Shown one piece after another: positions 34,777-55,175 of a stretch of 56,451 nucleotides of DNA (within the stretch, counting starts at the first letter, position 1; each line of letters begins with the position of its first letter). This DNA is from a virus (taxonomy: Duplodnaviria > Caudoviricetes): the IMG/VR virus record IMGVR_UViG_3300026518_000669, positions 1-56,451 of that record. The stretch is one strand, 5' to 3'. A program made the translations under genes and the position numbers. The notes under the pieces were generated by a model. That model was not told the DNA's origin and made no database searches. It saw only the letters and a list, made by a program, of their open reading frames with translations.

Positions 34777-34808
34777 AGCAAGAAAGGGAAGTCGCTTATT
34801 TCGATGTG

Positions 34809-34919
34809 CCCCTACGTCGGCGGCAACTGGAGCAATGGCGCGAATGCCGGGCTTTGGTACGTGAACTGCAACAATTCGGCGTCGAACTCGAACAGCAACA
34901 TCGGGGCGCGTCTCGCGAG
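34809..34919 (+). repeat. DGR template repeat (TR)
   Basis: Nine AAY codons aligned to VR; lies between avd and RT. Confidence 0.97.
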
Positions 34920-35078
34920 CGACCGCTTTACCGGCCAGAAACCGCCCGCCTACGGGTTGGCGGGCAGTGCCACATCCCTCGGGGCGGCTTTCCTCGCTTC
35001 ACGGCGAAACATCAATAGAGCGCGGCGGCCTACGGGTGGCCGCGTTTCATTTTGCACAAACTGCATAAGGACAATGCG

Positions 35079-40812: not shown

Positions 40813-41298
40813 ATGCCCCGTCAAGATGAAGCTGTGTTTTTACGCAGCGTGCTACAAAATAATGAAAGCGCCGCTGCCTTCTGTGAGTCGCTTTTCCGCA
40901 TTTCTCAGACCCTCGATGACCTGATTGATAAAGACAATCCGGTCACCGACGCGACGCTTATCCGCACGTTTTGGGAAGCGCTGATCGAGCTGCCCGCTAA
41001 CCCGTTCTATCGCCAGCACGAGCCCTACCTTCGCCCACTAATGGCCAGCGCATTACAAGACTGGCGAGATAGCGCGTGCCTTGAGCGCACCGACAATCAC
41101 CACTACCGCTCGATTGCCTTTGTGCTCCGCGACCAGCTCGCCACGGTACTGATCCAGTGCGCCTACTTGGTAGGTGGTTACGATTGGATGAATCAGGTCA
41201 GCGTGCCGGTTCGTCAGCATATTCACGAAGATACACTTGGCGATTACATGGCATCGCTCAACAAGACGCCAGCAGTAGAAGAGGAGGAAAGCCAATGA
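40813..41298 (+). CDS. Conserved helical protein with DDxxD motif
   Basis: LDDLIDKD and LPANPFY; precedes the ejection cluster. Confidence 0.7.
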   Translation: MPRQDEAVFLRSVLQNNESAAAFCESLFRISQTLDDLIDKDNPVTDATLIRTFWEALIELPANPFYRQHEPYLRPLMASALQDWRDSACLERTDNHHYRSIAFVLRDQLATVLIQCAYLVGGYDWMNQVSVPVRQHIHEDTLGDYMASLNKTPAVEEEESQ

Positions 41299-41963
41299 GC
41301 GGCGACGGCGGTGGTGGTGACAACACGGTTAAGGATACGCCTGAGCAACGCGAGCTGGCAGCGGTCGCTGCGGAGAAATGGAACTTCGCACAAGAGAAGC
41401 TGGCACCGCTGGAAAACGCTTACATGGAATCAGTGGGCGATATGACCAATGCGGGCAATATGAGCTACATCGCAGGCCGCACCATGCAGAGCCAGCAGCA
41501 GGCCACAGGCGAGGCAAGCCAGCAGGTTGGGGCACAGCTCGGGCAGGCAGGTATTAACCCTGCTAGCGGCCGCTATCAGTCGGCTATGAGCGGCATTGCT
41601 CTTGGCGGTGCCAGCGCAGGCGGCGAAACCCTCGGGCGCGCTCAGTTCGAGCAAGAGAACCAGCAGATTCAGGGCCTGCAAAATATCGTAGCCATTGGTC
41701 AGGGCCAAGCGGGACAGGCACAGCAAGGCTTATCGAATATTGCCAGCCAATCAGCCGCCGATGCCCGCCAGTCAGCGGCGAATCAGTTCAATCGACGCAG
41801 CGCTAATTTGCAGCTTCTTGGTCAGGTTGCCGGTGCCGGAGCCGCTTACGGCTTGAACAGCAGTGGTAGTACCCCGCCAGCTGCAGGTCTTGATCTTTAC
41901 CAGCAAGTCAATACGGGAAGCGTCGCTCCCGGTCAGGGTGCTGGCTACTTTGGCGGTTTCTAA
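41295..41963 (+). CDS. Ejection (internal virion) protein
   Basis: G/Q/A-rich helical composition; GAGGAGG RBS. Confidence 0.7.
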   Translation: MSGDGGGGDNTVKDTPEQRELAAVAAEKWNFAQEKLAPLENAYMESVGDMTNAGNMSYIAGRTMQSQQQATGEASQQVGAQLGQAGINPASGRYQSAMSGIALGGASAGGETLGRAQFEQENQQIQGLQNIVAIGQGQAGQAQQGLSNIASQSAADARQSAANQFNRRSANLQLLGQVAGAGAAYGLNSSGSTPPAAGLDLYQQVNTGSVAPGQGAGYFGGF

Positions 41964-41972
41964 GGAGGTGCT

Positions 41973-42449
41973 ATGCAATACCAACCCACGCTAGGGCAGA
42001 TTAGTTACGCCCCCTCTGAAACCGCGCAGCAGCGCGTCGACCCCAATCAAGCCATGCGCGGCGACCAAGGGGCCTCGCGGCTACTCGGCCAGCTCAACCG
42101 CGCCCAATGGGCAGACTGGAGAAACCGCTTCGCCCCCTACGTCGATGAGCTGGCCCGTGTGGCCCAAGACAACAACGCCCCAGGCGCAGCCGCTGCCAAT
42201 GCCAGTAACGCGGTGGGCTTGGCATTCGACAGCAGCCAGCAAGGGCTTGCCCAGCAGCGCCAAGGATTCGGCATCAACCTAACGCCACAGCAGCAAGCGG
42301 CAGAACAGCGCCGCACCAGCGTTGAGCGCAGCGCCTCAATGGTGAGCGCAGGCAACGAAGCGCGCATCTCTGCCCAAGACCGTCAAAATGCCATTCTGGC
42401 GGGCGGCATGGGCCTCTCCAATATTCCTGACAGGGTGATGAACCAATGA
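41973..42449 (+). CDS. Ejection (internal virion) protein
   Basis: Q/A-rich; TAAGGAGG RBS. Confidence 0.7.
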   Translation: MQYQPTLGQISYAPSETAQQRVDPNQAMRGDQGASRLLGQLNRAQWADWRNRFAPYVDELARVAQDNNAPGAAAANASNAVGLAFDSSQQGLAQQRQGFGINLTPQQQAAEQRRTSVERSASMVSAGNEARISAQDRQNAILAGGMGLSNIPDRVMNQ

Positions 42450-42685
42450 GCTACGGACTATTAGGCCTTCGCCAACAAATGGAAGGCCAGGCCATGCAAG
42501 GATTAAGCGACCTCGCAGGCCAGCAGCGTCAAGCCAAGCTGCAAGAAGAGCAGATGAAGCAGGCCGAGCGCGCCCAGAAGATGAGTGCCGTCGGCACCGG
42601 CGCAGGTATCGGCATGATGGCCGGTGGGCCAGTAGGCGCTGCGATTGGCGCGGGCGTTGGCTTTCTTGCCAGCTCAATCTTTTAG
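42446..42685 (+). CDS. Small glycine-zipper ejection protein
   Basis: GTGAGIGMMAGGPVGAAIGAGVG. Confidence 0.7.
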   Translation: MSYGLLGLRQQMEGQAMQGLSDLAGQQRQAKLQEEQMKQAERAQKMSAVGTGAGIGMMAGGPVGAAIGAGVGFLASSIF

Positions 42686-42694
42686 GAGGTCACT

Positions 42695-43954
42695 ATGTCA
42701 GGACTCGATACACGCGGCTTGGCCAGCGGCTTTGCGCAAGGCTTTGGGCTGATGAACCAGTATCAGCAACAGCAATTCCAGAACGAGCGCGCTGAAAAAC
42801 AGGATGCGATGCAAGCCGAGCAATTCGACATGCAGAAGCAACAGTTCAGCGCCCAGCAAGAAGATGTGCAGCGGCAGCGCGATATGGAAGAAATACAGTT
42901 CACGCTCGGCAAGATCGGCTCCGGCATGGACGTCGCCGAAGACGAGCTGGAAACCCTGCGCCGGTACCCGAAGTTTTGGGCCGCGCTAGACCCGCAGACA
43001 GACGCCTCTATTAATCAGGCCATGGCGGTGATTGACCCCAACACCACGGTAGATGCTAACGATCCCGAAAGCCTGGAAGCGCTCAACCAGATGTTTGGCG
43101 CCGAGATTAACCGTGGCGAGGGTGGCCAAAAGCGTGTGGTTGGTATGTATCCCGGCACGGACGGGCAGAGCGTCATGCTTGAGCTGGAAGTAGTGGGCGA
43201 GGACGGCAATACCTACCGAGCGCCGATGACCGAAGGGCGCGGTACCGCTGATGACGACCTGGTTAAAGCGGTGCCAATTGAAAAGCTGGTGGAGCAGGTG
43301 CAAGGCATGCGTTTGCTACGCAATACCATGCGCACGCCAGAAGCCCAGCAGCGTGCGACACAAGTGCTTGGTTTATTGCGTGGTGATAGCAACGAGCGTT
43401 GGGAGCAAGTGCAAGGCCCTGGCGGCTCTATCCTGCAGCGTAATACGGTGACCGGCGAAACTAGGCAGGTGCTAGGACGCGCGCCTCGCGCCGCTGGTGG
43501 CAGTGGCAGCACGCCAAGCCGTATTCAGGAGGCACAGGCGCTGGTGGATCGCGAGGTATACCCAACCTTTGCTGAAGCCTACGAAGCGGTGCGCGCCAGG
43601 GCTGGACAAAATAACCCTGCAGCTAATGCTCGTGACGAACTGGACTACGAGCTTAATCAGCTAGAAAGCATTATGAGTGTACTTAATGACCCTTTATCCC
43701 GAAACCGGCTAAGCGAAGAAGACCTTCAGCGCTACGAGCAAAGAGCGGCGGCTATTCAGGAGCGCATACCTAACCTTGAGCGGCAGGCATTTAATAGAAG
43801 CGCCGAGCCAGCCGGTCAGCGAACGCCTGCCCCGAGCGCCTCTCCACAGTCACAGCCGCAGCCTGAGCGTGAGCGCGGCTTAAGGCCTGGACCAGCACCT
43901 AGCGAAGAAACTGACGAAGACCCTGCTGCTGCCATTTTGAACAAATACTTCTAA
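42695..43954 (+). CDS. Ejection (DNA transfer) protein
   Basis: GLASGFAQGFGL start and Q-rich coiled coil; AGGAGG RBS. Confidence 0.7.
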   Translation: MSGLDTRGLASGFAQGFGLMNQYQQQQFQNERAEKQDAMQAEQFDMQKQQFSAQQEDVQRQRDMEEIQFTLGKIGSGMDVAEDELETLRRYPKFWAALDPQTDASINQAMAVIDPNTTVDANDPESLEALNQMFGAEINRGEGGQKRVVGMYPGTDGQSVMLELEVVGEDGNTYRAPMTEGRGTADDDLVKAVPIEKLVEQVQGMRLLRNTMRTPEAQQRATQVLGLLRGDSNERWEQVQGPGGSILQRNTVTGETRQVLGRAPRAAGGSGSTPSRIQEAQALVDREVYPTFAEAYEAVRARAGQNNPAANARDELDYELNQLESIMSVLNDPLSRNRLSEEDLQRYEQRAAAIQERIPNLERQAFNRSAEPAGQRTPAPSASPQSQPQPERERGLRPGPAPSEETDEDPAAAILNKYF

Positions 43955-43971: not shown

Positions 43972-46900
43972 GTGAACGCCGCCGAAGACCGCACACCGCC
44001 CAAGTGGACAGATATCGCCAATGACCCAGATTTTCAGGCCGCTGACTGGCAGACAAAGCAGCGCGTGCGAGGCGAGTTCTACCGCCGCGCCATTGAGCCC
44101 AATACGCCAGCATCGCTGCGCGAAGATGTGCAAAGCCAGTTCTTTGCCCGCACGGCATCTGACGTGTTTGGTGAGCGCGAAACACCCAATTTAGCCAGCA
44201 ACGCTTTGCGTAACGCTGGTGAGCGCGGCCTCGATTTGGCGGGCAATGCGCTGCAGTTCGTGGGCAACGTGGCAGACCGTGGAGAGCAGGCAATTACCGA
44301 CGCGCTTGGAGGCATTAACCCGGGCGTGATCGGTGGCAGCGTTGACGAGATGCGCGAGCGGGGCTACGAACCGGATGTGGCGCTAGGTGGCTTTGGCCTA
44401 GACTTCACGATGCGCGCCAAGCCAGAGGATACCAGCACCGGGCTTATCGACACTGGGCAGGCGGTTGAAGACATTAGCCTAGGCTACCAGCCTAACTACA
44501 CGATTGACCGTGCCCTTGATGAACCAAGCATTAGAACCATCGCGGGCGCTGCTGCCGAGCAAGGGCCAGCAGCACTGGCCGATATGGCAGGCCTAGTGGT
44601 AAGTCTGCCTGCCTACCTAGCGGCGCGAACACAGGAGATAGGCGAAGGCCGTGTTGAGAACGACAACCGCGAAGGAATGCCGGAAGGTCGCGATTATGCC
44701 GTCTCTGGCCCGACGGCTGCCGCCTCTGTGCTGCTAGACCGCTTTGCTCTTGGCCGATTACTTCCAGGCAGTGGAAATGCGGTAACTAGCGCACGACAAA
44801 TACCCGGGGCTGTTGGTCGCGCCGCAGCTACAGAAAGTGTTACTGAGGCGATTCAAGAGGGTGGTATTGAGTACGCTGGGGAGTCTGTGGGCACTGAGAC
44901 AGGCTGGAATGCCACAACCGCTGCGCGCCGTGCGGCAGGTGGCGTGATTGTTGGCGGCCCCACCGGGGGCGCTGTGCGAGCTGGTACCGCCGCCATGGAG
45001 TTGCGCGGAAATAATCAGCAGGGAAGTGAGCAACCAGAGCCTAGCGAATCCCCTGCTGAGCAATCTTCCCCCGCTCCAGAGGAAGCGCCGACCCCAGAAG
45101 CTGAAACCGCTAATGACGAGGCAATCGGCACCGCTGCCGAACTAATCGCCAAGCCTCGTTTTGAGCTGTCATCCGCTGAGCGCGAAGTGCGCGACTCCAT
45201 TAGCTACGGCGATGCCTTTAAGGCTCTGCGAGCGGCTGCTGAAGCGCGCGGCGATAGTGACGCCGTTGCAGAACTGGACGCCGTTAGCAGCGAGATTTCA
45301 GCGGCGCTGGAAGCGGAAACCATAGCGCGCTCGCGAAACGATAGCGACGCTTTCACACCTATTCGTGAGCAGCTGAAAAGCGCGTCAGAGCGCTTCACGC
45401 GTGTAATGGATCGCCTTAACACGCCCGAGGCTGAGAGCAAGGCAAGCGCGCCCAGCGCTAACAAGGATGGCAACGCCCAGTGGGAAGAGGCTTGGCGCGA
45501 GCAAGCCGCCCAAGACGGCATTGCAGACTACGACCCTAACGCCAACCTGCCTGACACCACGATCACGATTAACGGTGAACAGGTGGCTGATGAATCTCTG
45601 GTGCCGCCCGAAACACTTGACGTTGCGCGCCAAGACGAGCAAGCAGAAGAAGTGACTAAAGAAGTGGGGCAGCCAGCAGTGGCCCAGCCTGAGCCAGCGC
45701 TTGCCCCCGACCAGCCTTCACCCAATCCTGACACCAAGACTCCGCGCCGCGTGCCGGTTGAAAGCATCCAGGTAGACCCCGAGGCCTACCAGTTCCGCGC
45801 CGAGGTAAACGATCAGGGCGTGGACACTCGCCTGGAAGGCATCGAGAAATGGGACGACCTACGTGCTGGCAACCTGATTCTGCATGAGCGTACCGACGGT
45901 AGCGTGTACGCTGCTGATGGTCACCACCGCATTAACCTAGCTCGCCAGCTACAACAGCCAGACGTGAACGCGATTGTGCTGCGTGAAGCCGATGGCGTTA
46001 CCGTTGAGGATGCGCGCCGTGCCGCCGCTGAGGCGAACATTGCCGCAGGCAGCGCTACTGCTTTGGATTCCGCGAAGGTATTCCGTAATAGCAATGGTGA
46101 TATCGATACGGTGATTCGTGAGAGTAACCTGCCGCGTACCCAGCTTGTGCGCGACGGTGCCGACATTGCCAAGCTGGACACTGAGCCGTTTGGTGCGGTG
46201 CTTAACAAGGTAATCACTGAGAAGGACGGCGCGGTTATCGGTCGTTCTTTTGCCGACCCCGACCAGCAGCTTGCCGCCGTGGGCGTCTTCCAGCGAGTGA
46301 AGCCGACCAACGACAATCAGCGCGAGTTGCTAGCCAATGAAGTGCGCCAAGCAGGCTTTGCCGAAAGCCAAGGCGAGCAAGGCGGCTTGTTTGGTAATGA
46401 TCCAGCAGAGTCGCTTATTGGCGAGCGCGTAAAGGTAATGGATAGCCTTCGCCAAACCCTGGTGCGCGACAAGCGCTTATTCGCTACGCTGAACGATAAC
46501 GCCCAAACGGCTGAGCAGGCAGGCAACCGCATTGCCAAGGACCGCAACAACGCCCTACAGGAAACCTCGGCAGACGCCATTGCACTGCTAGAGCGGGCGA
46601 CGACCACGCCGGAAATTAACCAGCAGATCAACGACGCCGCGCGCCGTGTGAAGGATGGCGAAACACTTGCCAGCGTGACGCGAGAACTTAAAGAGGCATT
46701 ACTAAATGGCACAAACAGCCCAGCAGCGAGCGAAGGACGTACACCAGCACCTAGCAGCGGACAGGCTGATCAAGCAGGGCAAGACGCTGGAAGAAGTGAA
46801 CCAGTACCTGCAAGCAACGACGCACGAACAGCGCGTTCAGGAGAACAACGCCCACGCCCTGGAGCAGGAGCGCAAGCAGAACCAGCGGTAACTCTAAAGA

Positions 46901-49900
46901 CTGACGGCACGCCTTTCCAAACCCGTCGCGCTGTTGAACTGTCTAGGCGCTTCCGCGACACGCCTAACGCCCAGCCCGTTGAAGTAGAGGGTGGATGGGG
47001 TTTTGCTGTGGCTGACACGCCTATGCAGAATGCAGAAAGCACTAAGCCAGCAGGCCAGAATGTTAGCGGCCTTACCTCGTTGCCTTATGGGGGCAAGCGT
47101 TGGAACAAGGGCACCAAAACGGCAGAGGAAATGAGCGGCCAGGCGCCTATCGTTGATTACTCCGGTCGCCGCGTTGTGCTGAAAGACGTTAATGGCGTTA
47201 CCGTGCCGTTCTATCAAAGCACTGGCGCCGGCGGCAAGGCAGCCACCAAGCCTGGGCAGTGGTATCCATTCACCGGCATTGGTAGCGATGGCTGGATTAA
47301 CAAGCTGGGCGATGCTGATATATCGCAATACTACGGCAGCCCAGCGCTGCGCCAGGCAGCGCAAGAGCTAGATGCTACGGTTGGTGACATTCGCAGTCGT
47401 GACGATATCCCTAAGACCGGCACGACCGGCACCGGCCAGGCGTTTATTGATGCGGTGAACAGTGCCTTTGATGGACAGCAGGTGTCAGCAAACAATCAGC
47501 CTGACTCAAAAATCAACGTTCAATCCAGCGTTGATGCACTAAAAACAGCCGTTGATTCACAGACCTCCGATCTGGCCCTCGAAACCCAAACAGAAGAAAG
47601 CCTTGCGCAACGCGAGCAGGAAGTTCAGGCCGCTGAACAGACCGAAGCCGACCAGCGCAACCAAGAAGCGCAGCGCGCCCAAGCAGACGCCGAGGTCGAC
47701 GACTTTACTCTATCCGGCAGCAATCGCACCGCTGATGTGGCTGCTGCACGCGGGCAGAGTGACCTGCTTGGCGCGCAGCCAGCGTCTAATGAAAATACTC
47801 CGCCAAGCGAGCAGCAGTATTACCGCGACTGGCCACTATTAGACGAGATGCCTGACGGCTGGAAGAGAGATCCGACCGCCGGATCACCCTTGGCCAGGTA
47901 CGAGTTTGCTACTAACGGCCGTAGCGTGCTGTCTGGCCAGCAAGAGCGTGCGTTAGTGCGAATCAGGCCCGCACCTGCAGCCGGCCAGAACACTGATTCA
48001 CCTACGGCCCAAGTCCAGCAGGATTTAGCCAACGAAGCGCCCAAGCCCAAGCGCCGTAACCAGCCGCTGCAATACACCGGCTACTCAGGCGAACAGCGCA
48101 GCGTGCGCAGCTATCAAGAGGTTGGTAACTTCCGCATTGCCAAGGTGAACGACAGCCTTTACGAAGTGATTAACCCTGATGGTCAAGCCGTTAGCCAGCG
48201 AGCGGGGGCGGACGGTGCCGCACAAGAGGCTCAGCGACTAAACGACCTCCCCGCCGACGACCAGCGCTACGCTATCGGCCAAAGCGACGCCCGCCCGGTA
48301 AGCCGTGACGCCATCGAGGAAGCGCTGGCCAGCTCGCCCGAACTATCCGATGTAACGGTGATCCAGTCCGCAACCGAGCTGCCGCCGCAATCCATCCTGA
48401 TGATGGCCTTGCAAGGCGTGACGCCACGCGACGTGCGCGGCCTGTTCGTGGGCGACCAGCTCTATGTGATTGCGGATAACGTTGATGACGTACAAGAGGG
48501 CGTGCGTACCGCCGTTCATGAAGCCGTAGGTCACAAAGGTATGCGCGCCGTGCTGGGCGACGAGCTAGAAACAGTCATGCGCCAAGTCTATAACTCGCTA
48601 CCATTAGATCCGCGAGGACGCGAGGCGCTGAACGAAGTGCTAGAAAGCTACCCGTTCCTTGATCAGTCCAACCCTGAACATCAGCTTACCATCGCTGAAG
48701 AGATGGTCGCCCACCTCACCGAGAAGGGCTGGCAGCCTAACGTAATACGCCGCGCCGTGGCTAAAATCCGCGAGCTGCTGCGCCGCTACTTCCCCAGCAT
48801 GAACTGGACGGATGCGGACGTTATGCAGCTATCCGAGCGTTCGCGTGAGTACCTGCGCAGCCAGCAGGAAAAGGCGCAAGCGAGTACTGATCCTTGGTCA
48901 GATATGCGCTTTTCAATGGCTACGCCCCCCGGCGGCAACTTTAATCCCAATGACAGCACCAACTTCGCGCTGCCTGATGAAACGCTAAGCCAAACCGCGT
49001 TACGTAAAATGGCTGACAAAATGAACCGCCTCAAAGTCACGCAAGAAGCTATCAAACAAGCCGGTGGCAACATCAATGAAGACAATGATGTGTACCTAGC
49101 GGAGGAGCTTTTCCACGGCAAAACAGAGCGTGACTTGAATGAGCTAAGCCGCAACTACGTCGAGAAGCTAGCCAAAGGCATGGCTGCGCGCGGCATTCAG
49201 CAAGAAGAGTTGGACGCCTACCTTTATGCTCGTCATGCTCCAGAGCGAAATGCCCGAATAGCTGAACGCAATCCTAATGATCCCAAGTACGCAGATGGCG
49301 GCTCAGGCATGACGAATGCCGAAGCGGCCGCCATCATGCAAGAGGCCGAAAGCAGCGGCAAGAAGCTCCGGCTTGAGCGCTTGGCCGCTATCGTGGATGA
49401 CATGCTGGCACATCGCCGCGAGATCATCCGCGAAGGCGGACTGGAGACGGATGAGGTGCTAGATGCTTGGGATGCCAGCTATGACTACTACGTACCGTTG
49501 AAAGGTTGGGCAAATGATGAAGATGTTCCTGTGGGCCAGGACGGCAGTGGCCGGATGCGTTCTGGTCGCGGCTATGAGATCGGTGGGCGAGAAACTAAAA
49601 CGGCGCTTGGTCGCCTATCAAAAGCGGCTTCACCTTCTACGCAAGCGATTGTCGATACCACTGAGTCTGTTATTCGCAAGCGCAAAAACGAAGTTGGCAA
49701 TGCCTTGCTATCACTGATCACGGATAACCCCAACCCCGATTTGTGGCAGGTGTTCACCAACAACGACCCGGATACTCAGCGTACTCAGGTCGAGCGCACT
49801 AACCCAGACGGCACCAAACGCATTGAAGTAGAAGAGCGCCCGGTAGCCATGGAAATGAACGAGCGTTACTTCAAAACCAAGAAGGCGGGCCGGACATACT

Positions 49901-51708
49901 ACATTAAGATCAACGACCAGCGCCTGCTGAACGCAATGCGCAATGTAGGGCCAGAGCAGAACAACCTGCTGGTACGTACTGCCGCAGCTGGCACACGCGC
50001 TCTATCCGCTATGATGACCAGCTATAACCCTGAGTTCATGCTGTCCAACTTTACCCGAGACGTGCAGACGGCGCTTCTGAACGTGGCGGCAGAGCAGACC
50101 AGGGACGACGGCAAGATAAAAGGCCAGAAGATTGCCAGGCAGACGGCGAGAGATATTCCCCGCGCCATGAAGGCAGCCTATCGAGGGCTTGCTGACCCTG
50201 ACGCATCACGAAACACTGAGTGGGATCGTTGGTTCGATGAGTTTATCGAGGATGGGGCCAAGACAGGCTACTTCGATATGAAGGATTTGGCTGGTCAAGC
50301 CAAAGAGATCAAAAGCATTATTGGCCGTGAGAACGGCGGCACTATGGGCAATATGCTGAAGGCGAAGAAGACCGTAGCCGACTTCGTTGAGAACATGAAT
50401 GGCTCCGTTGAAAACGCGGTGCGCCTATCCGCCTACGTCAATGCACGCAGGGCAGGCATTAGCCGCAAGAAGGCCGCCAGCTTGGCCAAAAACCTAACGG
50501 TCAACTTTAACCGCAGAGGGGAGGCCGGCACTGCGCTTAATGCTGCGTACATGTTCGCCAACGCCTCCATCCAGGGCACCATGAACGTCGCCCGCACAAT
50601 GGTCACTGTGAAAGATACGCCGGTGGGCGGTAATAGGATGAACATCTGGGGCCGCATGAACGCCGCTCAAAAGCTAGCGGTAGGTATGGCCGTAGGCAGT
50701 TACGCAATGGCCATGTTCAACCGTATGATGTCAGACGAGGATGATGACGGCGAGCTGTTCTATGACAAAATTCCCGGTCACGTTAAAGAGCGCAACCTGA
50801 TCATCATGACAGGCGGCAAGGACTATGTCCGCATTCCTTTGCCTTATGGATACAGCGTCTTCTCAAACATTGGCACGCACGCTGAATCCGTCATGTCGGG
50901 TAAATCATCACTGACGGAGGCAGGAAAGGACATGACGCTGGCCATTCTTGGCAGCTTCTCACCTATTGGCTTCCAGGATTCAGAGGATATATCCAATTTG
51001 GTGATGAAAAACCTCACACCTACGCTGTTAGGTTCGGTGACCCAGGTGGCAGTCAATGAGGACTTTGCAGGCCGCGTGATCTTTAAAGAGAACTTCCCCT
51101 CCGGCACGCCCAAGCCGTATAGCTCACTTGCCTTCCGCTCTACGCCATCGGCTTACCAAAGCTTTGCCCAGTTTATTAACGAGCTGACAGGCGGCAGCGA
51201 GTACCGGTCAGGCGGTATTGATGTTAGCCCTGACGTACTACAGCACGTGGTCAACTATTACGGTGGCGGTGCTTGGTCGTTTACTGAGAAAGTGGCCGAC
51301 AGCATTAAGCGTACAGCGACTGGCGAGACCATCGACGCCCACCGTATTCCGTTTGTGGGCCGCTTCAAGTCTGAGGTCAATGAGTACGGCGATATTCAAA
51401 CGTTCTACGAGCGCCGTACCGAGGTTGGGCAACTGCATGAGGAGTTTATCAATCTGCCTAGAGAGGAAGCGCGCAGTTTCTATGACGAACATGGCGGCAA
51501 GATAGCGCTGTTTGATATGGCGAAAGATCTTGAAAAAACGCTGACAGAACTACGCAAGGTGCGTGACGCCATCGAGGCCGATGAGCGCCTTACTCCTGAA
51601 GAACGCGACGAACAGCTCGACGAGATTGAAGACGCGATGGATAGCGAGGTGGATTTCTTTAACCTGCTTTACAACCAGGCCGAAGGGACGGTTCAGTCGG
51701 CAAAGTAA
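43972..51708 (+). CDS. Giant internal virion / polyvalent protein (ParB-like, zincin-like, C-terminal LPD38-like)
   Basis: 2578 aa; DGHHR ParB-like motif; HEAVGH..G/EEMVA metallopeptidase-like motif; YARHAPERN, NPEF..SNF.RD, TVNFNRRG and IPLPYG motifs. Confidence 0.85.
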   Translation: MNAAEDRTPPKWTDIANDPDFQAADWQTKQRVRGEFYRRAIEPNTPASLREDVQSQFFARTASDVFGERETPNLASNALRNAGERGLDLAGNALQFVGNVADRGEQAITDALGGINPGVIGGSVDEMRERGYEPDVALGGFGLDFTMRAKPEDTSTGLIDTGQAVEDISLGYQPNYTIDRALDEPSIRTIAGAAAEQGPAALADMAGLVVSLPAYLAARTQEIGEGRVENDNREGMPEGRDYAVSGPTAAASVLLDRFALGRLLPGSGNAVTSARQIPGAVGRAAATESVTEAIQEGGIEYAGESVGTETGWNATTAARRAAGGVIVGGPTGGAVRAGTAAMELRGNNQQGSEQPEPSESPAEQSSPAPEEAPTPEAETANDEAIGTAAELIAKPRFELSSAEREVRDSISYGDAFKALRAAAEARGDSDAVAELDAVSSEISAALEAETIARSRNDSDAFTPIREQLKSASERFTRVMDRLNTPEAESKASAPSANKDGNAQWEEAWREQAAQDGIADYDPNANLPDTTITINGEQVADESLVPPETLDVARQDEQAEEVTKEVGQPAVAQPEPALAPDQPSPNPDTKTPRRVPVESIQVDPEAYQFRAEVNDQGVDTRLEGIEKWDDLRAGNLILHERTDGSVYAADGHHRINLARQLQQPDVNAIVLREADGVTVEDARRAAAEANIAAGSATALDSAKVFRNSNGDIDTVIRESNLPRTQLVRDGADIAKLDTEPFGAVLNKVITEKDGAVIGRSFADPDQQLAAVGVFQRVKPTNDNQRELLANEVRQAGFAESQGEQGGLFGNDPAESLIGERVKVMDSLRQTLVRDKRLFATLNDNAQTAEQAGNRIAKDRNNALQETSADAIALLERATTTPEINQQINDAARRVKDGETLASVTRELKEALLNGTNSPAASEGRTPAPSSGQADQAGQDAGRSEPVPASNDARTARSGEQRPRPGAGAQAEPAVTLKTDGTPFQTRRAVELSRRFRDTPNAQPVEVEGGWGFAVADTPMQNAESTKPAGQNVSGLTSLPYGGKRWNKGTKTAEEMSGQAPIVDYSGRRVVLKDVNGVTVPFYQSTGAGGKAATKPGQWYPFTGIGSDGWINKLGDADISQYYGSPALRQAAQELDATVGDIRSRDDIPKTGTTGTGQAFIDAVNSAFDGQQVSANNQPDSKINVQSSVDALKTAVDSQTSDLALETQTEESLAQREQEVQAAEQTEADQRNQEAQRAQADAEVDDFTLSGSNRTADVAAARGQSDLLGAQPASNENTPPSEQQYYRDWPLLDEMPDGWKRDPTAGSPLARYEFATNGRSVLSGQQERALVRIRPAPAAGQNTDSPTAQVQQDLANEAPKPKRRNQPLQYTGYSGEQRSVRSYQEVGNFRIAKVNDSLYEVINPDGQAVSQRAGADGAAQEAQRLNDLPADDQRYAIGQSDARPVSRDAIEEALASSPELSDVTVIQSATELPPQSILMMALQGVTPRDVRGLFVGDQLYVIADNVDDVQEGVRTAVHEAVGHKGMRAVLGDELETVMRQVYNSLPLDPRGREALNEVLESYPFLDQSNPEHQLTIAEEMVAHLTEKGWQPNVIRRAVAKIRELLRRYFPSMNWTDADVMQLSERSREYLRSQQEKAQASTDPWSDMRFSMATPPGGNFNPNDSTNFALPDETLSQTALRKMADKMNRLKVTQEAIKQAGGNINEDNDVYLAEELFHGKTERDLNELSRNYVEKLAKGMAARGIQQEELDAYLYARHAPERNARIAERNPNDPKYADGGSGMTNAEAAAIMQEAESSGKKLRLERLAAIVDDMLAHRREIIREGGLETDEVLDAWDASYDYYVPLKGWANDEDVPVGQDGSGRMRSGRGYEIGGRETKTALGRLSKAASPSTQAIVDTTESVIRKRKNEVGNALLSLITDNPNPDLWQVFTNNDPDTQRTQVERTNPDGTKRIEVEERPVAMEMNERYFKTKKAGRTYYIKINDQRLLNAMRNVGPEQNNLLVRTAAAGTRALSAMMTSYNPEFMLSNFTRDVQTALLNVAAEQTRDDGKIKGQKIARQTARDIPRAMKAAYRGLADPDASRNTEWDRWFDEFIEDGAKTGYFDMKDLAGQAKEIKSIIGRENGGTMGNMLKAKKTVADFVENMNGSVENAVRLSAYVNARRAGISRKKAASLAKNLTVNFNRRGEAGTALNAAYMFANASIQGTMNVARTMVTVKDTPVGGNRMNIWGRMNAAQKLAVGMAVGSYAMAMFNRMMSDEDDDGELFYDKIPGHVKERNLIIMTGGKDYVRIPLPYGYSVFSNIGTHAESVMSGKSSLTEAGKDMTLAILGSFSPIGFQDSEDISNLVMKNLTPTLLGSVTQVAVNEDFAGRVIFKENFPSGTPKPYSSLAFRSTPSAYQSFAQFINELTGGSEYRSGGIDVSPDVLQHVVNYYGGGAWSFTEKVADSIKRTATGETIDAHRIPFVGRFKSEVNEYGDIQTFYERRTEVGQLHEEFINLPREEARSFYDEHGGKIALFDMAKDLEKTLTELRKVRDAIEADERLTPEERDEQLDEIEDAMDSEVDFFNLLYNQAEGTVQSAK

Positions 51709-51941
51709 TGCTTTTTTTCAAGATAACGCAACCGCTCTAACCGGCGGTTGTTTTCTTTGTATTCTTCATTTTCCAATATCATCCAAGCTACCGGTGCCAC
51801 AAAAAATATGCAAACAACAGCTACTACAGGTGCTTTAATCCACCATGGAGCGAATTGAAGGTTATCATTTTGCCACGCTATCAAGAAAAAGGCGGCAGTA
51901 TATAATTGCGCTACTACTATGAATTTTATTGCGTTAAGCAT
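51693..51941 (-). CDS. Small two-TM membrane moron protein
   Basis: AT-rich; AGGAG RBS; two TM segments and a charged C-terminus; convergent with the giant gene. Confidence 0.7.
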   Translation of the reverse strand: MLNAIKFIVVAQLYTAAFFLIAWQNDNLQFAPWWIKAPVVAVVCIFFVAPVAWMILENEEYKENNRRLERLRYLEKKHYFAD

Positions 51942-51965
51942 AAGCCGCTCCTGATGGCGTTGCTG

Positions 51966-52439
51966 TTATTCATCCAAGGGGCTTGAAGCATCCCTATCAA
52001 ATGCGTCAAAAACATTTCTGTCCAGGTCGGACTCTGTACGATCCATAAACACGGTTCGCACCTCTTGTTCAAGCTCCTCTCTTTGCTCTTTGGTCATGCT
52101 TGGAATTATCACCCAATCAAGGAATTTTCTGCGCATAAGGTCTCGCGCATCCCTATCGGCCAATAAAAAATCTTCTGAGCTAGCCACTTGCCTCCAAGTT
52201 ACCGCCACGCTGTCGTCAACATCGTCTGACTTGGCAACCGCAGGCTCTGACTGACCTCTAAGGTTGGTTTCATGCTTGCGCGCGCAAGCCCGAAGAAGCT
52301 CGTCGGCTGCAAAATCGGATCTCGCTATCGACACAAACTCTAATACGCAGTCATTAAAACCATCAGGGTCATAAGCGCTTACGGCTTGAGGTGAAAGAAT
52401 CGCGACTGTAGCAACTGCTATCAAAATTCCTTTTATCAT
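51966..52439 (-). CDS. Secreted moron protein carrying a segment similar to the ejection-protein N-terminus
   Basis: ATG 52439 with GGGAG RBS; signal peptide ending ..AVSA/Y; DC...AC..K Cys pair; C-terminal W..VA...DF..AD...R..F...I.P segment. Confidence 0.8.
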   Translation of the reverse strand: MIKGILIAVATVAILSPQAVSAYDPDGFNDCVLEFVSIARSDFAADELLRACARKHETNLRGQSEPAVAKSDDVDDSVAVTWRQVASSEDFLLADRDARDLMRRKFLDWVIIPSMTKEQREELEQEVRTVFMDRTESDLDRNVFDAFDRDASSPLDE

Positions 52440-52516
52440 TGAAGCGCTCCCATGTTTAGCGGTGAGGGCCTGATCTTGCCATGTTAGCTTGCTTGGCGAT
52501 AAGCAGCGAGGGCCTG

Positions 52517-52924
52517 CTATTGCATGCACGCTCTAACAACTGCTTCTTGGGCTTCAGAAATATCCAGGCTATCAACCGCGCACTCCTGAAGTTCTTTCAG
52601 TATTGCGGCGTCAAGCGTGCAGATATCGGAAATAACACCGGAGAACTTCTTCTGAAGCGCTTCGCTTGCCTTGAGTTCATAGTAAACGTCTAGGCACACC
52701 CAAGTTGTTTTCTGTAGATAGCAGGTATGCAGCGGAAGATGGAAGTTTGGGAATCGGTCTTCAGGCTGGCAACCATAAACATTGCCACGCCCATGCTGCT
52801 TGGAGGTGGTTTTAGCCACGACGGCGACACCGTCTTTGAAGCCCAAGACAACAAATAATTTCTCGCCCGATACGCCATCATGGAAATGAAAATCTCTATC
52901 GAAAAACACTGACCCTGGCGTCAC
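52517..52924 (-). CDS. Putative toxin (PemK/MazF-like fold)
   Basis: GSVF.....K.FVVL.....TTSK pattern; overlaps the Panacea gene end. Confidence 0.6.
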   Translation of the reverse strand: MTPGSVFFDRDFHFHDGVSGEKLFVVLGFKDGVAVVAKTTSKQHGRGNVYGCQPEDRFPNFHLPLHTCYLQKTTWVCLDVYYELKASEALQKKFSGVISDICTLDAAILKELQECAVDSLDISEAQEAVVRACMQ

Positions 52925-53477
52925 CGCGTAAGCTCTCCATTAGCTGCTGATGCTCGTTGGCAACGGCCATGACCTCATCGCGCTCTTGCGCTCGCACTGC
53001 AAGATCGTAAGGAATTTTTTCTTGCTGCCCGCCCCATTGATTGAATACCTTGTCCCATGGCTGGTTTTCCAGGTGGGTCGCTTCAATCATGTCTTCGGCC
53101 TTATGATGCTCAAATTCTTTAGCAAGGCGCTCCATAAGCTTGCGCTCTCGCTTGCTGAAATGGGAACCATCAAATTGAGCCTTAGGCTTGAAGGTAAGCA
53201 TAGGGCGGCCATACCCAGTGGGTATTTCGGTAAAATCAATCGCCTTTGCCATGTCCGGTTCAGGGCAGTTGATCTCATCAAAAAGGCTCTGCGGAACCGG
53301 TCCCATCTTCCAGGCGTAGTAATCCTGACCGGTCACATTGCGGCCAGTATCCTTAAAATGCTCAAAATCGAGGAAGTAGAGCAGCTTGAAAAGCTTAATC
53401 TTCCCGCATTTCTGTGTGTTCTGTGCGAAGTAGATGATCGTATTAATCAACTTCTCGCGTTCGTGTGTCATTAACAT
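52896..53477 (-). CDS. Panacea (DUF4065/SocA) antitoxin
   Basis: KLFKLLYF.D, AWKMGPVP and THLENQPW motifs. Confidence 0.88.
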   Translation of the reverse strand: MLMTHEREKLINTIIYFAQNTQKCGKIKLFKLLYFLDFEHFKDTGRNVTGQDYYAWKMGPVPQSLFDEINCPEPDMAKAIDFTEIPTGYGRPMLTFKPKAQFDGSHFSKRERKLMERLAKEFEHHKAEDMIEATHLENQPWDKVFNQWGGQQEKIPYDLAVRAQERDEVMAVANEHQQLMESLRGDARVSVFR

Positions 53478-53608
53478 GGTGGCGACCTCGCGTACTGGCA
53501 TTGCCAGCGCGCTCGATATAGCTCCTGCTGAATTTTTTTTGCGTACGCTACATACGTTACAACATAGCGCATATTGCTACATCTTAGATAGCGAATAGGG
53601 GAGAAGGT

Positions 53609-53884
53609 TTAGGCTTTCTTGCTCTTTTCCCTTTCCTCCATCTGCTTCAAAAGCCTCTCCTCAACCATCTCGGCGATCATCGAGGCCAGCAGCTCCCGGC
53701 GTACTTCTTCGGTCAGATCAGGACTTTCAACAGAAGATGTGTAGGTGTTTTCTTCGTCGAAGCTTTCTTGCAAGCGAGCCACTATCTCCGCATTCATGGA
53801 GCGGTGATTTTCTTCTGAGGCTTGCTTGATTTTTTCTTTCAAATCAGCGGGCAAGCGCAATTTGTACTGAGGGTCTGTTTGCAT
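53609..53884 (-). CDS. Arc/Mnt-family RHH repressor (mnt position)
   Basis: DPQYKLRLPADLKEKI...RSMNAEIVARL. Confidence 0.9.
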   Translation of the reverse strand: MQTDPQYKLRLPADLKEKIKQASEENHRSMNAEIVARLQESFDEENTYTSSVESPDLTEEVRRELLASMIAEMVEERLLKQMEEREKSKKA

Positions 53885-53910
53885 AGTGTAAATAATGAAC
53901 CAGATAGGTG

Positions 53911-53962
53911 TTGACGGCAATAAACCTAACAGGTACCTTTTAACGGTACCTACAAGGTACCT
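53911..53962. promoter_or_regulatory. Divergent promoter with three GGTACC operator boxes
   Basis: TTGACG at 53911; GGTACC at 53932, 53945 and 53956. Confidence 0.6.
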
Positions 53963-53983
53963 TAGCAAAAAGGAGAATCACTA

Positions 53984-54142
53984 ATGAAACGAAACGGGCA
54001 GCAGTTCAAAGCACGATTCAACGCGGACGTAAAAGCTTGGATTGAAGAGAAGGCGAGAAAGGAGGATAGAAGTCAGACCTGGATTATCAATCATTACTTA
54101 GAGAAGGCAATGCGCCATGAATCCAAACACTCAGCAGCCTAA
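53984..54142 (+). CDS. Arc-like RHH protein (52 aa, absent from the ORF track)
   Basis: AAGGAG RBS; translates as MKRNGQQFKARFNADVKAWIEEKARKEDRSQTWIINHYLEKAMRHESKHSAA. Confidence 0.8.
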   Translation: MKRNGQQFKARFNADVKAWIEEKARKEDRSQTWIINHYLEKAMRHESKHSAA

Positions 54143-54215
54143 AAACGAAGAAGCCCCAGCGTTGAGGGACGCCAGGGCTTCGGATTACCACCAACCATCT
54201 ACGAAAGGTGACAAC

Positions 54216-55175
54216 ATGAACGCAACCAGAAAAGGTAACGCTCAAATGAATGATAGCATCACCGACCAAAGCTCGCATCTACCCGTCATCGCAGGCCATG
54301 AGATCACAACCGACGAGCATGGGCGCTTCAACCTTAATGCCATCCACCGGGCCAGCGGAGAAGGGGAGCACAAGCGCCCATCAAAATGGGCCGTAACAGC
54401 CCAGGCAAAAGAGCTTATTGAAGAGCTTGAAGCCCAAGGCCCGATTTCGGGCTTTGCTCCACTCGGCTCAAAACATGGCGGTTCAGGGCGCGGCACCTAC
54501 GCTCATGAGCTTCTAGCCATCAGCTACGCCGGATGGATCAGCCCCAAGTTTCAGCTTCAAGTGAATCAGGTGTTCCTCGACTACCGCATGGGTAAGCTGC
54601 AGCAAGTCGAAACAAAGCCCGCTTGTGAGGCCCTGCCAAACCCTCTTACCCCAGCGCATCAGCGCGGCATCCAAAAAGCCGTTGGTCGCCGCTGCTTCAA
54701 TATGCCAGAAGCGGCACGCCCTAAAGCCTACAAACGCATCTATTCATACCTGAAAGACCGCTTCGGCGTGGCCAAGTACGATCAGATACCGGACGAACTC
54801 TACACCGAGGCGCTTGGTGCGGTGGAATCTTACACGTTCAATGGCGATTTTCTGGAAGCTGAAACGCTGCCGCAAGCCAAGCCGGTTAAGGTGCTGGATA
54901 TCGACGAATGGCTGAACATGAATTACTACATGAAGTCTCGCCAGCAAAATTCAGGGCGACTCTTGGTGACCGCTAAATTCTTGCTGGATTCGGAATACCG
55001 CTCACCCTGTATGCGTTTGGTGAAAGAGCTAGAAGCAGAAGGGCATAACTTGGACGCTTGCCGCCTAGAGATCGCCAGCTTGCGACACCACTTAGAAAGC
55101 GCAGTGGCAAAACTCGAGCATGTCATATCAATGGCGCAAGGCGTCAACATTCAGGCGGTTAGCTTTGCACGCTGA
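54216..55175 (+). CDS. Antirepressor (KilA-N + ORF6C-like)
   Basis: GRFNLNAIHRA and GTYAHELLAISYAGWISPKF (KilA-N); LKDRFGVAKYDQIP (ORF6C-like). Start may be 54117, 54216 or 54246. Confidence 0.88.
   Translation: MNATRKGNAQMNDSITDQSSHLPVIAGHEITTDEHGRFNLNAIHRASGEGEHKRPSKWAVTAQAKELIEELEAQGPISGFAPLGSKHGGSGRGTYAHELLAISYAGWISPKFQLQVNQVFLDYRMGKLQQVETKPACEALPNPLTPAHQRGIQKAVGRRCFNMPEAARPKAYKRIYSYLKDRFGVAKYDQIPDELYTEALGAVESYTFNGDFLEAETLPQAKPVKVLDIDEWLNMNYYMKSRQQNSGRLLVTAKFLLDSEYRSPCMRLVKELEAEGHNLDACRLEIASLRHHLESAVAKLEHVISMAQGVNIQAVSFAR

What the first reader, a model, noticed from the sequence alone, without database searches (positions are those of the whole stretch)
51966..52439. Secreted moron carrying a copy of the ejection protein's N-terminal domain: candidate decoy-type superinfection exclusion
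Seen: residues about 82-139 of this signal-peptide protein (WRQVASSEDFLLADRDARDLMRRKFLDWVIIPSMTKEQREELEQEVRTVFMDRTESDL, nt 52196-52023) align by eye with residues 12-65 of the adjacent 2578-aa virion protein (WTDIANDPDFQAADWQTKQRVRGEFYRRAIEPNTPASLRED----VQSQFFARTASDV, nt 44005-44166). About 18 positions are identical with one 4-aa gap. The segment is followed by NVFDAFD, resembling NxFDxFD motifs I recall from podoviral internal virion proteins. Known: in P22 this slot (after the last ejection gene, before mnt-arc-ant) holds sieA, which blocks DNA injection. Inference: the lysogen exports a mimic of the ejectosome interaction domain to the periplasm to poison assembly of the trans-envelope channel of related phages. 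I know of no described exclusion mechanism of this type.
Basis: partly seen in the sequence, partly recalled or inferred. Interest (0 to 1): 0.88.

Follow-up and report, generated by a model that had tools for sequence, protein, structure and literature searches.

The report
Secreted copy of ejection-protein head
A Halomonas prophage encodes a small exported protein that carries a true, anciently diverged copy of the N-terminal module of the phage's own giant virion protein, which may let lysogens block entry of related phages, but this function is untested.

Summary
The 157-aa ORF (52439-51966, minus strand) has a Sec-type signal peptide, a two-cysteine module, a ~60-aa "W-domain" and an NVFDAFD tail. 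The W-domain is homologous to residues ~9-70 of the adjacent 2578-aa LPD38 giant. BLASTP gives E 5e-6. A profile-profile comparison that leaves out the window's own protein gives E 2.5e-12.

The NxFDxFD recollection is also confirmed. N[VP]FDQFD lies within the first 45 residues of 194 of 207 viral ORFs found by pattern, and one related giant carries two copies followed by a W-domain. The small protein therefore combines both kinds of N-terminal "head" seen on these virion proteins.

It is rare (9 hits among 1.84 billion representatives). It lies next to a W-headed giant in 3 of 3 contexts seen, but is absent from most W-giant prophages. In Halomonas sp. H2 it is a clean ~0.5-kb cassette insertion. 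The W-domain shows purifying selection (dN/dS 0.26).

The duplication is old, and cognate pairs are no more alike than non-cognate pairs.

The exclusion function is inferred only; nothing tested export, expression or binding. The main rival is that these heads are capsid-targeting signals, as in P1 DarB. No structure model could be obtained.

The parts
51966..52439 (-). Small gene, 157 aa: signal peptide + two-Cys module + linker + W-domain + NVFDAFD tail
   Evidence: Translation; RBS; family alignment; no Pfam, PHROG or PADLOC family.
52374..52439 (-). Residues 1-22, Sec-type signal peptide (MIKGILIAVATVAILSPQAVSA), read by eye
   Evidence: Sequence. All eight aligned relatives and the G228 protein also have an N-terminal hydrophobic segment. 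No SignalP was run.
52260..52373 (-). Residues 23-60, two-cysteine module (C31, C52 invariant). The same module occurs alone in other small exported proteins and at the N-terminus of a PLA1 phospholipase.
   Evidence: Weak, below-cutoff match to NF041602 (E 3.8e-4, 20.2 bits against a cutoff of 65).
52020..52202 (-). Residues 80-140, W-domain, paralogue of the giant's N-terminal head
   Evidence: dN/dS 0.26 against Halomonas sp. H2.
51996..52016 (-). Residues 142-148, NVFDAFD motif
   Evidence: Only match in the window's six frames. Related N[VP]FDQFD is an extreme-N-terminal tag of viral proteins of about 0.4-3.7 kaa.
43972..51708 (+). Giant 2578-aa LPD38 polyvalent virion or ejection protein, last gene of the late operon, convergent with the small gene's operon
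   Evidence: PF18857 E 5.7e-41; phrog_616 E 2.3e-300; tblastn hit in 338 phage records, best 49.5% identity.
43996..44181 (+). Residues 9-70 of the giant: W-domain head
   Evidence: W profile E 3.5e-25.
51693..51941 (-). 82-aa ORF with two hydrophobic segments, directly downstream of the small gene (GGAG before the ATG); possible operon partner
   Evidence: 71% identical to a 92-aa ORF in the same slot of IMG/VR locus L130. Not found in 342 Halomonadaceae genomes.
52460..52516 (-). Two copies of the 13-mer CAGGCCCTC(G/A)C(T/C)G between the upstream ORF and the small gene. The same 13-mer brackets the small-gene cassette in Halomonas sp. H2.
52517..52924 (-). 135-aa ORF of no known family, overlapping the end of the Panacea gene; candidate toxin partner
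   Evidence: Unrelated to the ORF at the same place in H2.
52896..53501 (-). Panacea/SocA-domain antitoxin-like protein
   Evidence: PF13274 E 1.6e-20.
53609..53968 (-). Arc-like ribbon-helix-helix regulator
   Evidence: PF03869 E 8.7e-17.
54117..55175 (+). KilA-N / ORF6C antirepressor-like protein (immI-like region)
   Evidence: PF04383 E 1.7e-20 and PF10552 E 1.5e-7; anti-repressor PHROGs.

Best explanation
The small gene is a moron cassette. Its product is probably exported to the periplasm of the lysogen. There it would display the two kinds of N-terminal 'head' that this class of virion-delivered proteins carries: the W-domain and the NxFDxFD motif. The most likely role is superinfection exclusion. 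When a related phage ejects its internal proteins into the periplasm, the resident protein either occupies the partner that the incoming heads must engage, or binds the heads themselves. Either way the giant cannot take its place in the DNA-delivery path.

Shown here: the homology, the domain make-up, the tight linkage to giant genes, cassette-like gain and loss, and purifying selection.

Inferred: export and disulfide formation, expression from the prophage, the periplasmic meeting with incoming heads, any binding, and exclusion itself.
For: - True homology of the W-domain between the small family and the giants.
- The small protein also carries NVFDAFD. One related giant, P0036, has NVFDQFD at residues 4 and 23, then a W-domain at 67-123 (E 3.6e-11), then the common core. 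Locus L088 has three FDQFD motifs before the same 'SN(I/A)(A/L)R(G/N)AGER' core. W and the motif are therefore alternative or combined heads of one protein class.
- N[VP]FDQFD lies within the first 45 aa in 85 of 94 and 109 of 113 viral ORFs. Carriers include an SLT transglycosylase and a glucosaminidase. Those are enzymes whose substrate is in the periplasm, so such heads reach the compartment the small protein would occupy.
- Exported character: a signal-peptide-like N-terminus in the eight aligned members and the G228 protein, and two invariant cysteines in the eight. The same Cys module heads an outer-membrane phospholipase PLA1.
- Context: opposite strand to the late operon, an immI-like region, and lower G+C (0.47-0.50 against 0.54-0.61).
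- The small gene lies next to a W-headed giant in 3 of 3 contexts seen (window; G001/H2; G228).
- In other prophages the same slot holds small membrane or exported proteins.
- The gene is a clean ~0.5-kb insertion in H2 relative to the collinear G311 locus.
- dN/dS is 0.42 overall and 0.26 for the W-domain plus tail.
- Periplasmic or membrane proteins that block ejection machinery are an established kind: T4 Spackle (PMC7677548, abstract) and P22 SieA (PMC10883804, abstract and passages).
Against: - Nothing here shows export, expression, binding or exclusion.
- Cognate small/giant W-domains are no more alike (28, 30, 25%) than non-cognate pairs (20-37%). The giants form a separate clade with support 0.991. 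The classes differ consistently, for example (E/D)W(V/I) in the small proteins where the giants have R/D/E-R-x.
- Most W-giant prophages lack the small protein: 9 of 11 genomes, and none of the 13 IMG/VR loci in the DNA held. Some IMG/VR loci duplicate the genomes, and some end at the giant gene.
- The NVFDAFD tail is present only in the three closest members (P0001, P0003, P0004), and the window's own giant lacks the motif.
- N-terminal signals of injected proteins can serve capsid targeting (P1 DarB), which would put the partner in the cytoplasm.
- Most motif-bearing viral proteins have no annotated function.
Confidence: 0.35

Rival explanations
1. The W-domain and N[VP]FDQFD are capsid-targeting or packaging signals that load large proteins into procapsids in the cytoplasm. 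The small exported protein merely re-uses an old copy of the fold for an unrelated periplasmic task and never meets phage heads.
For: - The motif sits at the extreme N-terminus (residue 6 or earlier in 53 of 94 and 88 of 113 ORFs) on proteins of very different length and domain content, as expected of a portable sorting tag.
- The first 30 aa of P1 DarB are sufficient for capsid targeting, and T4 IPIII has a similar signal (PMC9024508, abstract and passages).
- One carrier is DarB-like (phrog_10089).
- The small and giant W-domains diverged long ago and do not co-vary.
Against: - It does not explain why the small gene is found only beside W-headed giants (3 of 3).
- It does not explain why the closest members also acquired the second head element, NVFDAFD.
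- A sorting tag and a periplasmic role at entry do not exclude each other.
Confidence: 0.25
2. The small protein is a lysogenic-conversion or envelope factor unrelated to phage entry. The W-domain is a general envelope-binding module (for peptidoglycan, membrane or a host periplasmic protein). The giant uses it on arrival, and the exported protein uses it for host physiology or for another defence.
For: - The Cys module occurs in small exported proteins away from giants (G130 beside type I R-M-like ORFs by eye; G263) and on a PLA1.
- The slot holds varied small membrane proteins and Panacea-type modules.
- No defence family matches.
Against: Outside the giants' N-termini, the W-domain itself was found only in this small family. 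That holds in 1.84 billion representatives, in the 'longer' search, which returned only fragments of giants besides small-family members already known, and in 742 genomes. This argues for a phage-specific partner.
Confidence: 0.2
3. The gene is a decaying by-product of recombination at the giant's 5' end, with no function.
For: Rarity and patchy presence.
Against: - Intact ORFs across members only 27-37% identical to the window's protein, with conserved core residues and signal peptides.
- dN/dS 0.26 in the W-domain.
- A good RBS.
- Old divergence from the giants.
Confidence: 0.05

Closest known systems
T4 Spackle (Sp), periplasmic superinfection-exclusion protein
   Same: Small, signal-peptide-bearing periplasmic protein made by a resident phage that acts on a virion-delivered protein of the incoming phage (PMC7677548, abstract).
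   Different: Spackle is not a paralogue of its target. It inhibits the gp5 lysozyme domain. No sequence relation was found (no Pfam hit). Here the protein copies the target's own N-terminal module, and no activity is known.
P22 SieA
   Same: Prophage-expressed. Thought to interfere with the ejection-protein conduit (PMC10883804, abstract and passages). Comparable genomic position near the immI-type regulators (partly recalled; sieA-orf59a-mnt adjacency seen).
   Different: SieA is a multi-pass inner-membrane protein with a cytoplasmic FxRYPxEAxxFNK motif. The protein here has a single N-terminal hydrophobic segment and no such motif (read by eye).
Capsid-targeting signals of injected proteins (P1 DarB first 30 aa; T4 IPIII CTS)
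   Same: Short N-terminal elements on large virion-delivered proteins, portable between cargoes (PMC9024508). N[VP]FDQFD and the W-domain have this placement on the giants.
   Different: No sequence likeness was tested or claimed. In the small protein the elements sit behind a signal peptide and at the C-terminal end, where a cytoplasmic sorting role makes no sense.
Giant LPD38 polyvalent protein of short-tailed Stx phages (phi24B gp47; Stx2-converting phage 86 gp35)
   Same: The C-terminal 912 aa of the window's giant are about 49% identical. It is the last late gene in both. gp47 was detected in virions and proposed as an ejection protein.
   Different: The first 200 aa of the phage-86 protein show neither a W-domain nor the motif (by eye). 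tblastn of the window giant's first 243 aa finds nothing in 50,697 phage records.
HXS system effector HxsA
   Same: A periplasmic protein reported to stop phage DNA entry (PMC13128918, abstract only).
   Different: HxsA is a host defence system with rSAM maturation and a peptidoglycan-binding domain. It is unrelated in sequence and logic.

Membership tests
W-domain head of Halomonadaceae LPD38 giants (unnamed; a precomputed Pfam label PF28034.1 on member P0007 could not be looked up) | Significant profile-level sequence homology | tested here: met
   hhalign E 2.5e-12 without the window's protein. W profile gives small 3.7e-27 and giant 3.5e-25.
W-domain head of Halomonadaceae LPD38 giants (unnamed; a precomputed Pfam label PF28034.1 on member P0007 could not be looked up) | Conserved W / F / R / P / V / F / T core positions | tested here: met
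   W, F, V and F are invariant, and R, P and T are at least 90% conserved, across 12 rows.
W-domain head of Halomonadaceae LPD38 giants (unnamed; a precomputed Pfam label PF28034.1 on member P0007 could not be looked up) | Location at the extreme N-terminus of a protein of more than 2000 aa, followed by the SNALRNAGERGLDL core | tested here: not met
   In the small protein the domain is residues 80-140 of 157, behind a signal peptide and the Cys module, with no core.
N[VP]FDQFD N-terminal tag of viral proteins (about 0.4-3.7 kaa) | Motif sequence | tested here: met
   NVFDAFD, the single match in the window's six frames. It is a variant with A in place of Q.
N[VP]FDQFD N-terminal tag of viral proteins (about 0.4-3.7 kaa) | Position within the first 45 residues, often in two copies | tested here: not met
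   Residue 142 of 157, one copy. Compare 194 of 207 viral ORFs with the motif within the first 45 aa.
P22 SieA superinfection exclusion proteins | Multi-pass inner-membrane protein with the conserved FxRYPxEAxxFNK motif | tested here: not met
   One N-terminal hydrophobic segment only and no such motif, read by eye. Family features taken from PMC10883804.
P22 SieA superinfection exclusion proteins | Blocks DNA injection of related phages | not testable with these tools
   Needs plating and DNA-entry assays.
T4 Spackle | Sequence family membership | tested here: not met
   No Pfam, PHROG or NCBIfam family above its cutoff.
T4 Spackle | Periplasmic location through a signal peptide | tested here: inconclusive
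   A signal-peptide-like N-terminus and two conserved cysteines, read by eye. No predictor or experiment.
VF_A0006 four-cysteine family (NF041602) | Score at or above the curated cutoff, and four cysteines | tested here: not met
   20.2 bits against a cutoff of 65, over residues 11-57 only. The mature part has two cysteines.
LPD38 large polyvalent proteins (for the giant, not the small protein) | PF18857 above the gathering score | tested here: met
   141.1 bits against a cutoff of 27, residues 2264-2462.

The most novel reading that the evidence does not exclude
Lysogens export a paralogue of the N-terminal head of ejected virion proteins (the W-domain plus an NxFDxFD motif). In the periplasm it competes with, or caps, the heads of incoming phages. 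This would be superinfection exclusion by molecular mimicry of the ejection machinery's own docking element. As a by-product, it would identify W and N[VP]FDQFD as the docking or sorting code of a very large, unannotated class of internal virion proteins.
Probability: 0.3. Interest if true: 0.85.

Novelty: new variant of a known kind. Interest (0 to 1): 0.6.

Why it matters
If the protein excludes phages, it would be a periplasmic exclusion factor that works by copying part of its target, not by inhibiting an enzyme or plugging a membrane. My searches found no such mode. They were full-text searches for the motif strings, for 'superinfection exclusion' with 'decoy' and 'prophage', and for 'superinfection exclusion' with 'mimic' and 'ejection'. 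Only listings were read for most hits.

Independently of function, the work exposes two unannotated N-terminal head elements on internal or ejection proteins:
- the W-domain, found in Halomonadaceae giants;
- the N[VP]FDQFD tag, found in at least 194 viral contigs, on proteins from peptidoglycan hydrolases to DarB-like polyvalent proteins.

Knowing what these heads bind would bear on how podophage-type virions load and deliver large proteins. It would also offer a handle for loading foreign cargo, as was done with the P1 DarB signal.

Tried and rejected
- Structure prediction. Structure prediction accepted no jobs, each retried only after the stated wait. There is therefore no model, no fold search and no fold comparison of the two W-domains.
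- Complex prediction with giant residues 1-110 and small residues 23-157, both given as alignments: 'no answer', ipSAE 0.00 in both runs, partner fold uncertain. This is no evidence either way.
- RNA evidence. Seven metatranscriptome runs hold 5-10% of the words of 51600-54200. Contigs of the four runs laid cover parts of 52503-53853 (the Panacea gene, the 135-aa ORF and the Arc gene) and nothing over the small gene. Contigs cannot show absence of expression.
- ESM Atlas: no usable hit for P0001 or P0007.
- PDB sequence searches with the W profile and the family profile: only chance-level matches, E > 1.
- tblastn of the small protein and of the giant's first 243 aa against 50,697 phage records: no match.
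- Contexts of the distant members P0005-P0009 could not be seen. Scans of viral contigs with P0001, P0005, P0006 and P0008 found nothing. A metagenome scan with alignment A3 found nothing.
- The W profile against the 94 NVFDQFD loci: no W-domain.
- Search for other 'signal peptide plus motif' proteins among 207 motif loci: only one 98-aa ORF, in L045 and L072. Its contig has no other motif, so it is compatible with a chance hit.
- The 82-aa membrane ORF was not found in 342 Halomonadaceae genomes.
- Promoter scan of 51500-54200: 3 sites against 3.1 expected, none before the small gene.
- The search of earlier findings was not open.
- Recent duplication from the cognate giant: rejected by identities and tree.

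Full report
WHAT IS THERE. The window is an IMG/VR provirus record of 56,451 bases from a Halomonas/Vreelandella-type host; the close relatives of its proteins carry those names.

It has a podovirus-like late operon on the + strand. The identifiable genes are a terminase, a portal, a major head protein, tail-fibre proteins with a diversity-generating retroelement, and an internal virion protein. The operon ends with a 2578-aa ORF at 43972-51708. This giant carries Pfam LPD38 (E 5.7e-41) and matches phrog_616 (E 2.3e-300).

The giant's last 912 aa find 338 phage records by tblastn. The best are about 49% identical and belong to short-tailed Stx phages; others are Vibrio, Ralstonia and Burkholderia phages. 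In a 2026 preprint on phi24B (10.64898/2026.04.10.717836, passages read), the homologous gp47 was detected in virions by proteomics but was not seen in the reconstruction. The authors proposed it as an encapsidated ejection protein. Calling the window's giant a virion or ejection protein therefore rests on homology, not on a test.

Convergent with the giant, on the - strand, lie five ORFs in this order:
- an Arc-like gene (53968-53609);
- a Panacea/SocA gene (53501-52896);
- an overlapping 135-aa ORF of no family (52924-52517);
- the small gene (52439-51966);
- an 82-aa ORF with two hydrophobic segments (51941-51693).

A KilA-N/ORF6C antirepressor-like gene follows on the + strand (54117-55175). 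G+C is 0.47-0.50 across 51-54 kb, against 0.54-0.61 across 41-51 kb.

The small protein (157 aa) aligns with the giant's N-terminus at E 5e-6, with 19 of 66 positions identical. Against the whole giant, 0 of 2000 shuffles reach the observed score (Gumbel p about 8e-4).

The exhaustive search of 1.84 billion representatives found 9 proteins at E <= 1e-3. None was a giant. Six are full-length relatives of 135-159 aa. Three share only the N-terminal part.

The decisive test left out the window's own protein. A profile of the five distant relatives was compared with a profile of the first 75 aa of 23 giants. hhalign gave probability 97.7% and E 2.5e-12 over 62 columns.

A 12-row alignment of small and giant segments keeps W, F, V and F invariant, and R, P and T nearly so. 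I call this ~60-aa module the W-domain. In the window's six frames, the family profile finds only the small gene and the giant's N-terminus.

ANATOMY OF THE SMALL PROTEIN.
- Residues 1-22 read as a Sec signal peptide: K3, a hydrophobic core, then VSA|Y. This is by eye, with no predictor. The eight aligned members and the G228 protein all have such an N-terminus.
- Residues 23-60 are a module with two invariant cysteines. The same module occurs without a W-domain in three other small proteins (P0010-P0012). It also occurs in a 68-aa ORF in the same slot of a related provirus (L130) and at the N-terminus of a PLA1 outer-membrane phospholipase in another genome. It has a weak, below-cutoff likeness to NCBIfam's VF_A0006 four-cysteine family. 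This fits an exported protein with a periplasmic disulfide, which is an inference.
- Residues 80-140 are the W-domain.
- Residues 142-148 are NVFDAFD.

THE NxFDxFD RECOLLECTION IS CONFIRMED AND WIDENED. The motif occurs once in the window's six frames. Among the 25 giants retrieved, one (P0036) starts with NVFDQFD at residues 4 and 23. A W-domain follows at 67-123 (E 3.6e-11), and then the common SNALRNAGERGLDL core.

Two pattern scans of IMG/VR gave these counts:
- NVFDQFD: 94 loci. The motif lies within the first 45 residues of the ORF in 85, at residue 6 or earlier in 53, and 65 have at least two copies in the first 120 aa.
I analysed the 113 loci not already held. The motif lies within the first 45 residues in 109, and at residue 6 or earlier in 88.

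Most carriers are 0.4-3.7 kaa. Of 12 distinct NVFDQFD-locus proteins scanned, four gave informative matches: a glucosaminidase (PF01832), an SLT transglycosylase (PF01464), a 3717-aa LPD39/helicase polyvalent protein and a DarB-like protein. The rest were unassigned or in PHROGs of unknown function. Nine NPFDQFD carriers gave only unknown-function PHROGs and one 'major head protein' PHROG.

Locus L088 has three FDQFD motifs directly before a core like that of the window's giant. The W-domain and N[VP]FDQFD therefore appear to be alternative or combined N-terminal heads of one broad class of virion-delivered proteins, and the small protein carries both. The W-domain itself was not detectable in the 94 NVFDQFD loci.

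DISTRIBUTION AND LINKAGE. In 342 Halomonadaceae genomes, 13 match the family profile:
- 2 have a full small protein (G001 = Halomonas sp. H2, and G228), and both also have a W-headed giant;
- 9 have only a W-headed giant;
- 2 have only Cys-module proteins, which do not lie beside giants.

A sample of 401 genomes of the order added only the PLA1 fusion and one weak fragment.

In H2 the order is Arc-like, Panacea, a 141-aa membrane ORF, the small gene, a 72-aa membrane ORF, then the convergent giant. In G228 the small gene abuts the giant's stop codon, and host genes follow within about 1.5 kb. The small gene therefore lies beside a W-headed giant in 3 of 3 contexts I could see.

Most W-giant prophages lack the small gene. 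No divergent copy lies within the up to 8 kb held downstream of the nine other giants (one locus ends after 1.7 kb; hmmsearch with filters off). None lies in the DNA held for 13 IMG/VR loci. Some of those loci duplicate the genomes, and at least four end at or inside the giant gene.

In those prophages the slot holds other small membrane or exported ORFs, often a ~70-aa single-pass protein. An alignment of H2 with the collinear G311 locus shows the small gene as a clean ~0.5-kb insertion bracketed by CAGGCCCTCGCTG repeats. The window has two copies of this 13-mer just upstream of the gene.

EVOLUTION. Between the window and H2, dN/dS is 0.42 for the gene and 0.26 for the W-domain plus tail. 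This is a single pair.

W-domain identities are as follows:
- small to small, 21-78% (mean 35);
- giant to giant, 35-90% (mean 50);
- small to giant, 20-37% (mean 29).

The three cognate pairs score 28, 30 and 25%, no better than non-cognate pairs. In a FastTree of the domain the giants form one clade (support 0.991) and the small proteins fall outside it. The copy is therefore old and conserved, and it does not track its neighbour's head.

HOW IT MOST LIKELY WORKS. I put the exclusion reading first, at about 0.35. An exported protein that displays both head elements would meet incoming heads in the periplasm, the compartment where motif-bearing peptidoglycan hydrolases must act. It could compete for their partner or bind them.

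Known relatives in kind are T4 Spackle, a periplasmic protein that binds the gp5 lysozyme domain (PMC7677548, abstract), and P22 SieA, an inner-membrane protein whose escape mutations map to ejection proteins gp16 and gp20 (PMC10883804). The protein here belongs to neither family (see the membership tests). Every step after 'the protein has these modules' is inference.

The main rival, at about 0.25, is that the heads are capsid-targeting signals like the first 30 aa of P1 DarB (PMC9024508). Their partner would then be cytoplasmic, and the exported copy would do something else. A general envelope role (about 0.2) and a functionless remnant (about 0.05) are the other rivals.

WHAT I COULD NOT DO. 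No structure model was obtainable: structure prediction accepted no jobs. The one complex prediction gave no answer. RNA contigs do not cover the gene. The neighbourhoods of the five distant members could not be read. One distant member carries a precomputed Pfam label, PF28034.1, which is absent from the local Pfam copy. The small family may therefore already have a Pfam entry that I could not read. Supplementary files of the papers were not consulted.

VERDICT. As a thing, it is a new variant of a known kind, namely prophage envelope-acting exclusion candidates. It also uncovers a widespread N-terminal tag of internal virion proteins for which my full-text search of the motif strings found no paper. 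Interest 0.6.

Noticed in passing
window 32483-36125: Diversity-generating retroelement. A reverse transcriptase lies at 35052-36125 (phrog_1423 E 5.7e-113). The template repeat is 34809-34919 and the variable repeat is 34243-34353, at the 3' end of the tail-fibre gene 32483-34366. All 11 differences fall at template adenines.
   Followed up: partly
window 52517-53501 (-): Panacea/SocA-domain gene (PF13274 E 1.6e-20) overlapping a 135-aa ORF of no family: a candidate PanA-type toxin-antitoxin pair with a new toxin. H2 and G311 have a different Panacea gene followed by a 141/155-aa membrane ORF unrelated to the 135-aa ORF.
   Followed up: partly
window 51693-51941 (-); L130 18811-19089: 82-aa ORF with two hydrophobic segments directly after the small gene. 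It is 71% identical to a 92-aa ORF in the same slot of a related provirus, where it sits beside a 68-aa Cys-module-only ORF. It was not found in 342 Halomonadaceae genomes. It may itself be an exclusion-type membrane protein.
   Followed up: partly
L003 10579-10797; L028, L030, L031, L032 just after the giant gene (a likely copy, by eye, in L027): A conserved ~70-aa single-pass membrane ORF (e.g. MDKNGIILLLFF...) is the commonest occupant of the position convergent with the giant gene in Halomonadaceae prophages.
   Followed up: no
IMG/VR loci L034-L127 and L141-L253: N[VP]FDQFD, usually starting at residue 3-4 and often doubled, is an extreme-N-terminal tag on viral ORFs, mostly 0.4-3.7 kaa (194 of 207 ORFs). 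Carriers include SLT and glucosaminidase proteins and DarB-like/LPD39 polyvalent proteins. My full-text search for the motif strings found no relevant paper.
   Followed up: partly
L045 560-856 and L072 (same protein): 98-aa ORF with a signal-peptide-like N-terminus and NVFDQFD at residue 26, beside a CHAP-like hydrolase and a 1665-aa fibre gene. There is no other motif on the contig. It could be a second kind of exported motif carrier or a chance match.
   Followed up: partly
L003 9969-10560 vs L032; window 52460-52516: A 13-mer, CAGGCCCTCGCTG, brackets the small-gene cassette in Halomonas sp. H2. It occurs once at the empty site in G311 and twice upstream of the gene in the window. It may be a junction or recombination sequence of this moron slot.
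   Followed up: partly
L022 862-1860 (genome G683): An outer-membrane phospholipase A1 (PF02253 E 2.6e-98) carries the same two-cysteine module between its signal peptide and the PLA1 domain.
   Followed up: partly
window 41157-43954 (+): Three ORFs (268, 158 and 419 aa) between the tail genes and the giant match only PHROGs of unknown function (phrog_611, 596, 601).
   Followed up: no
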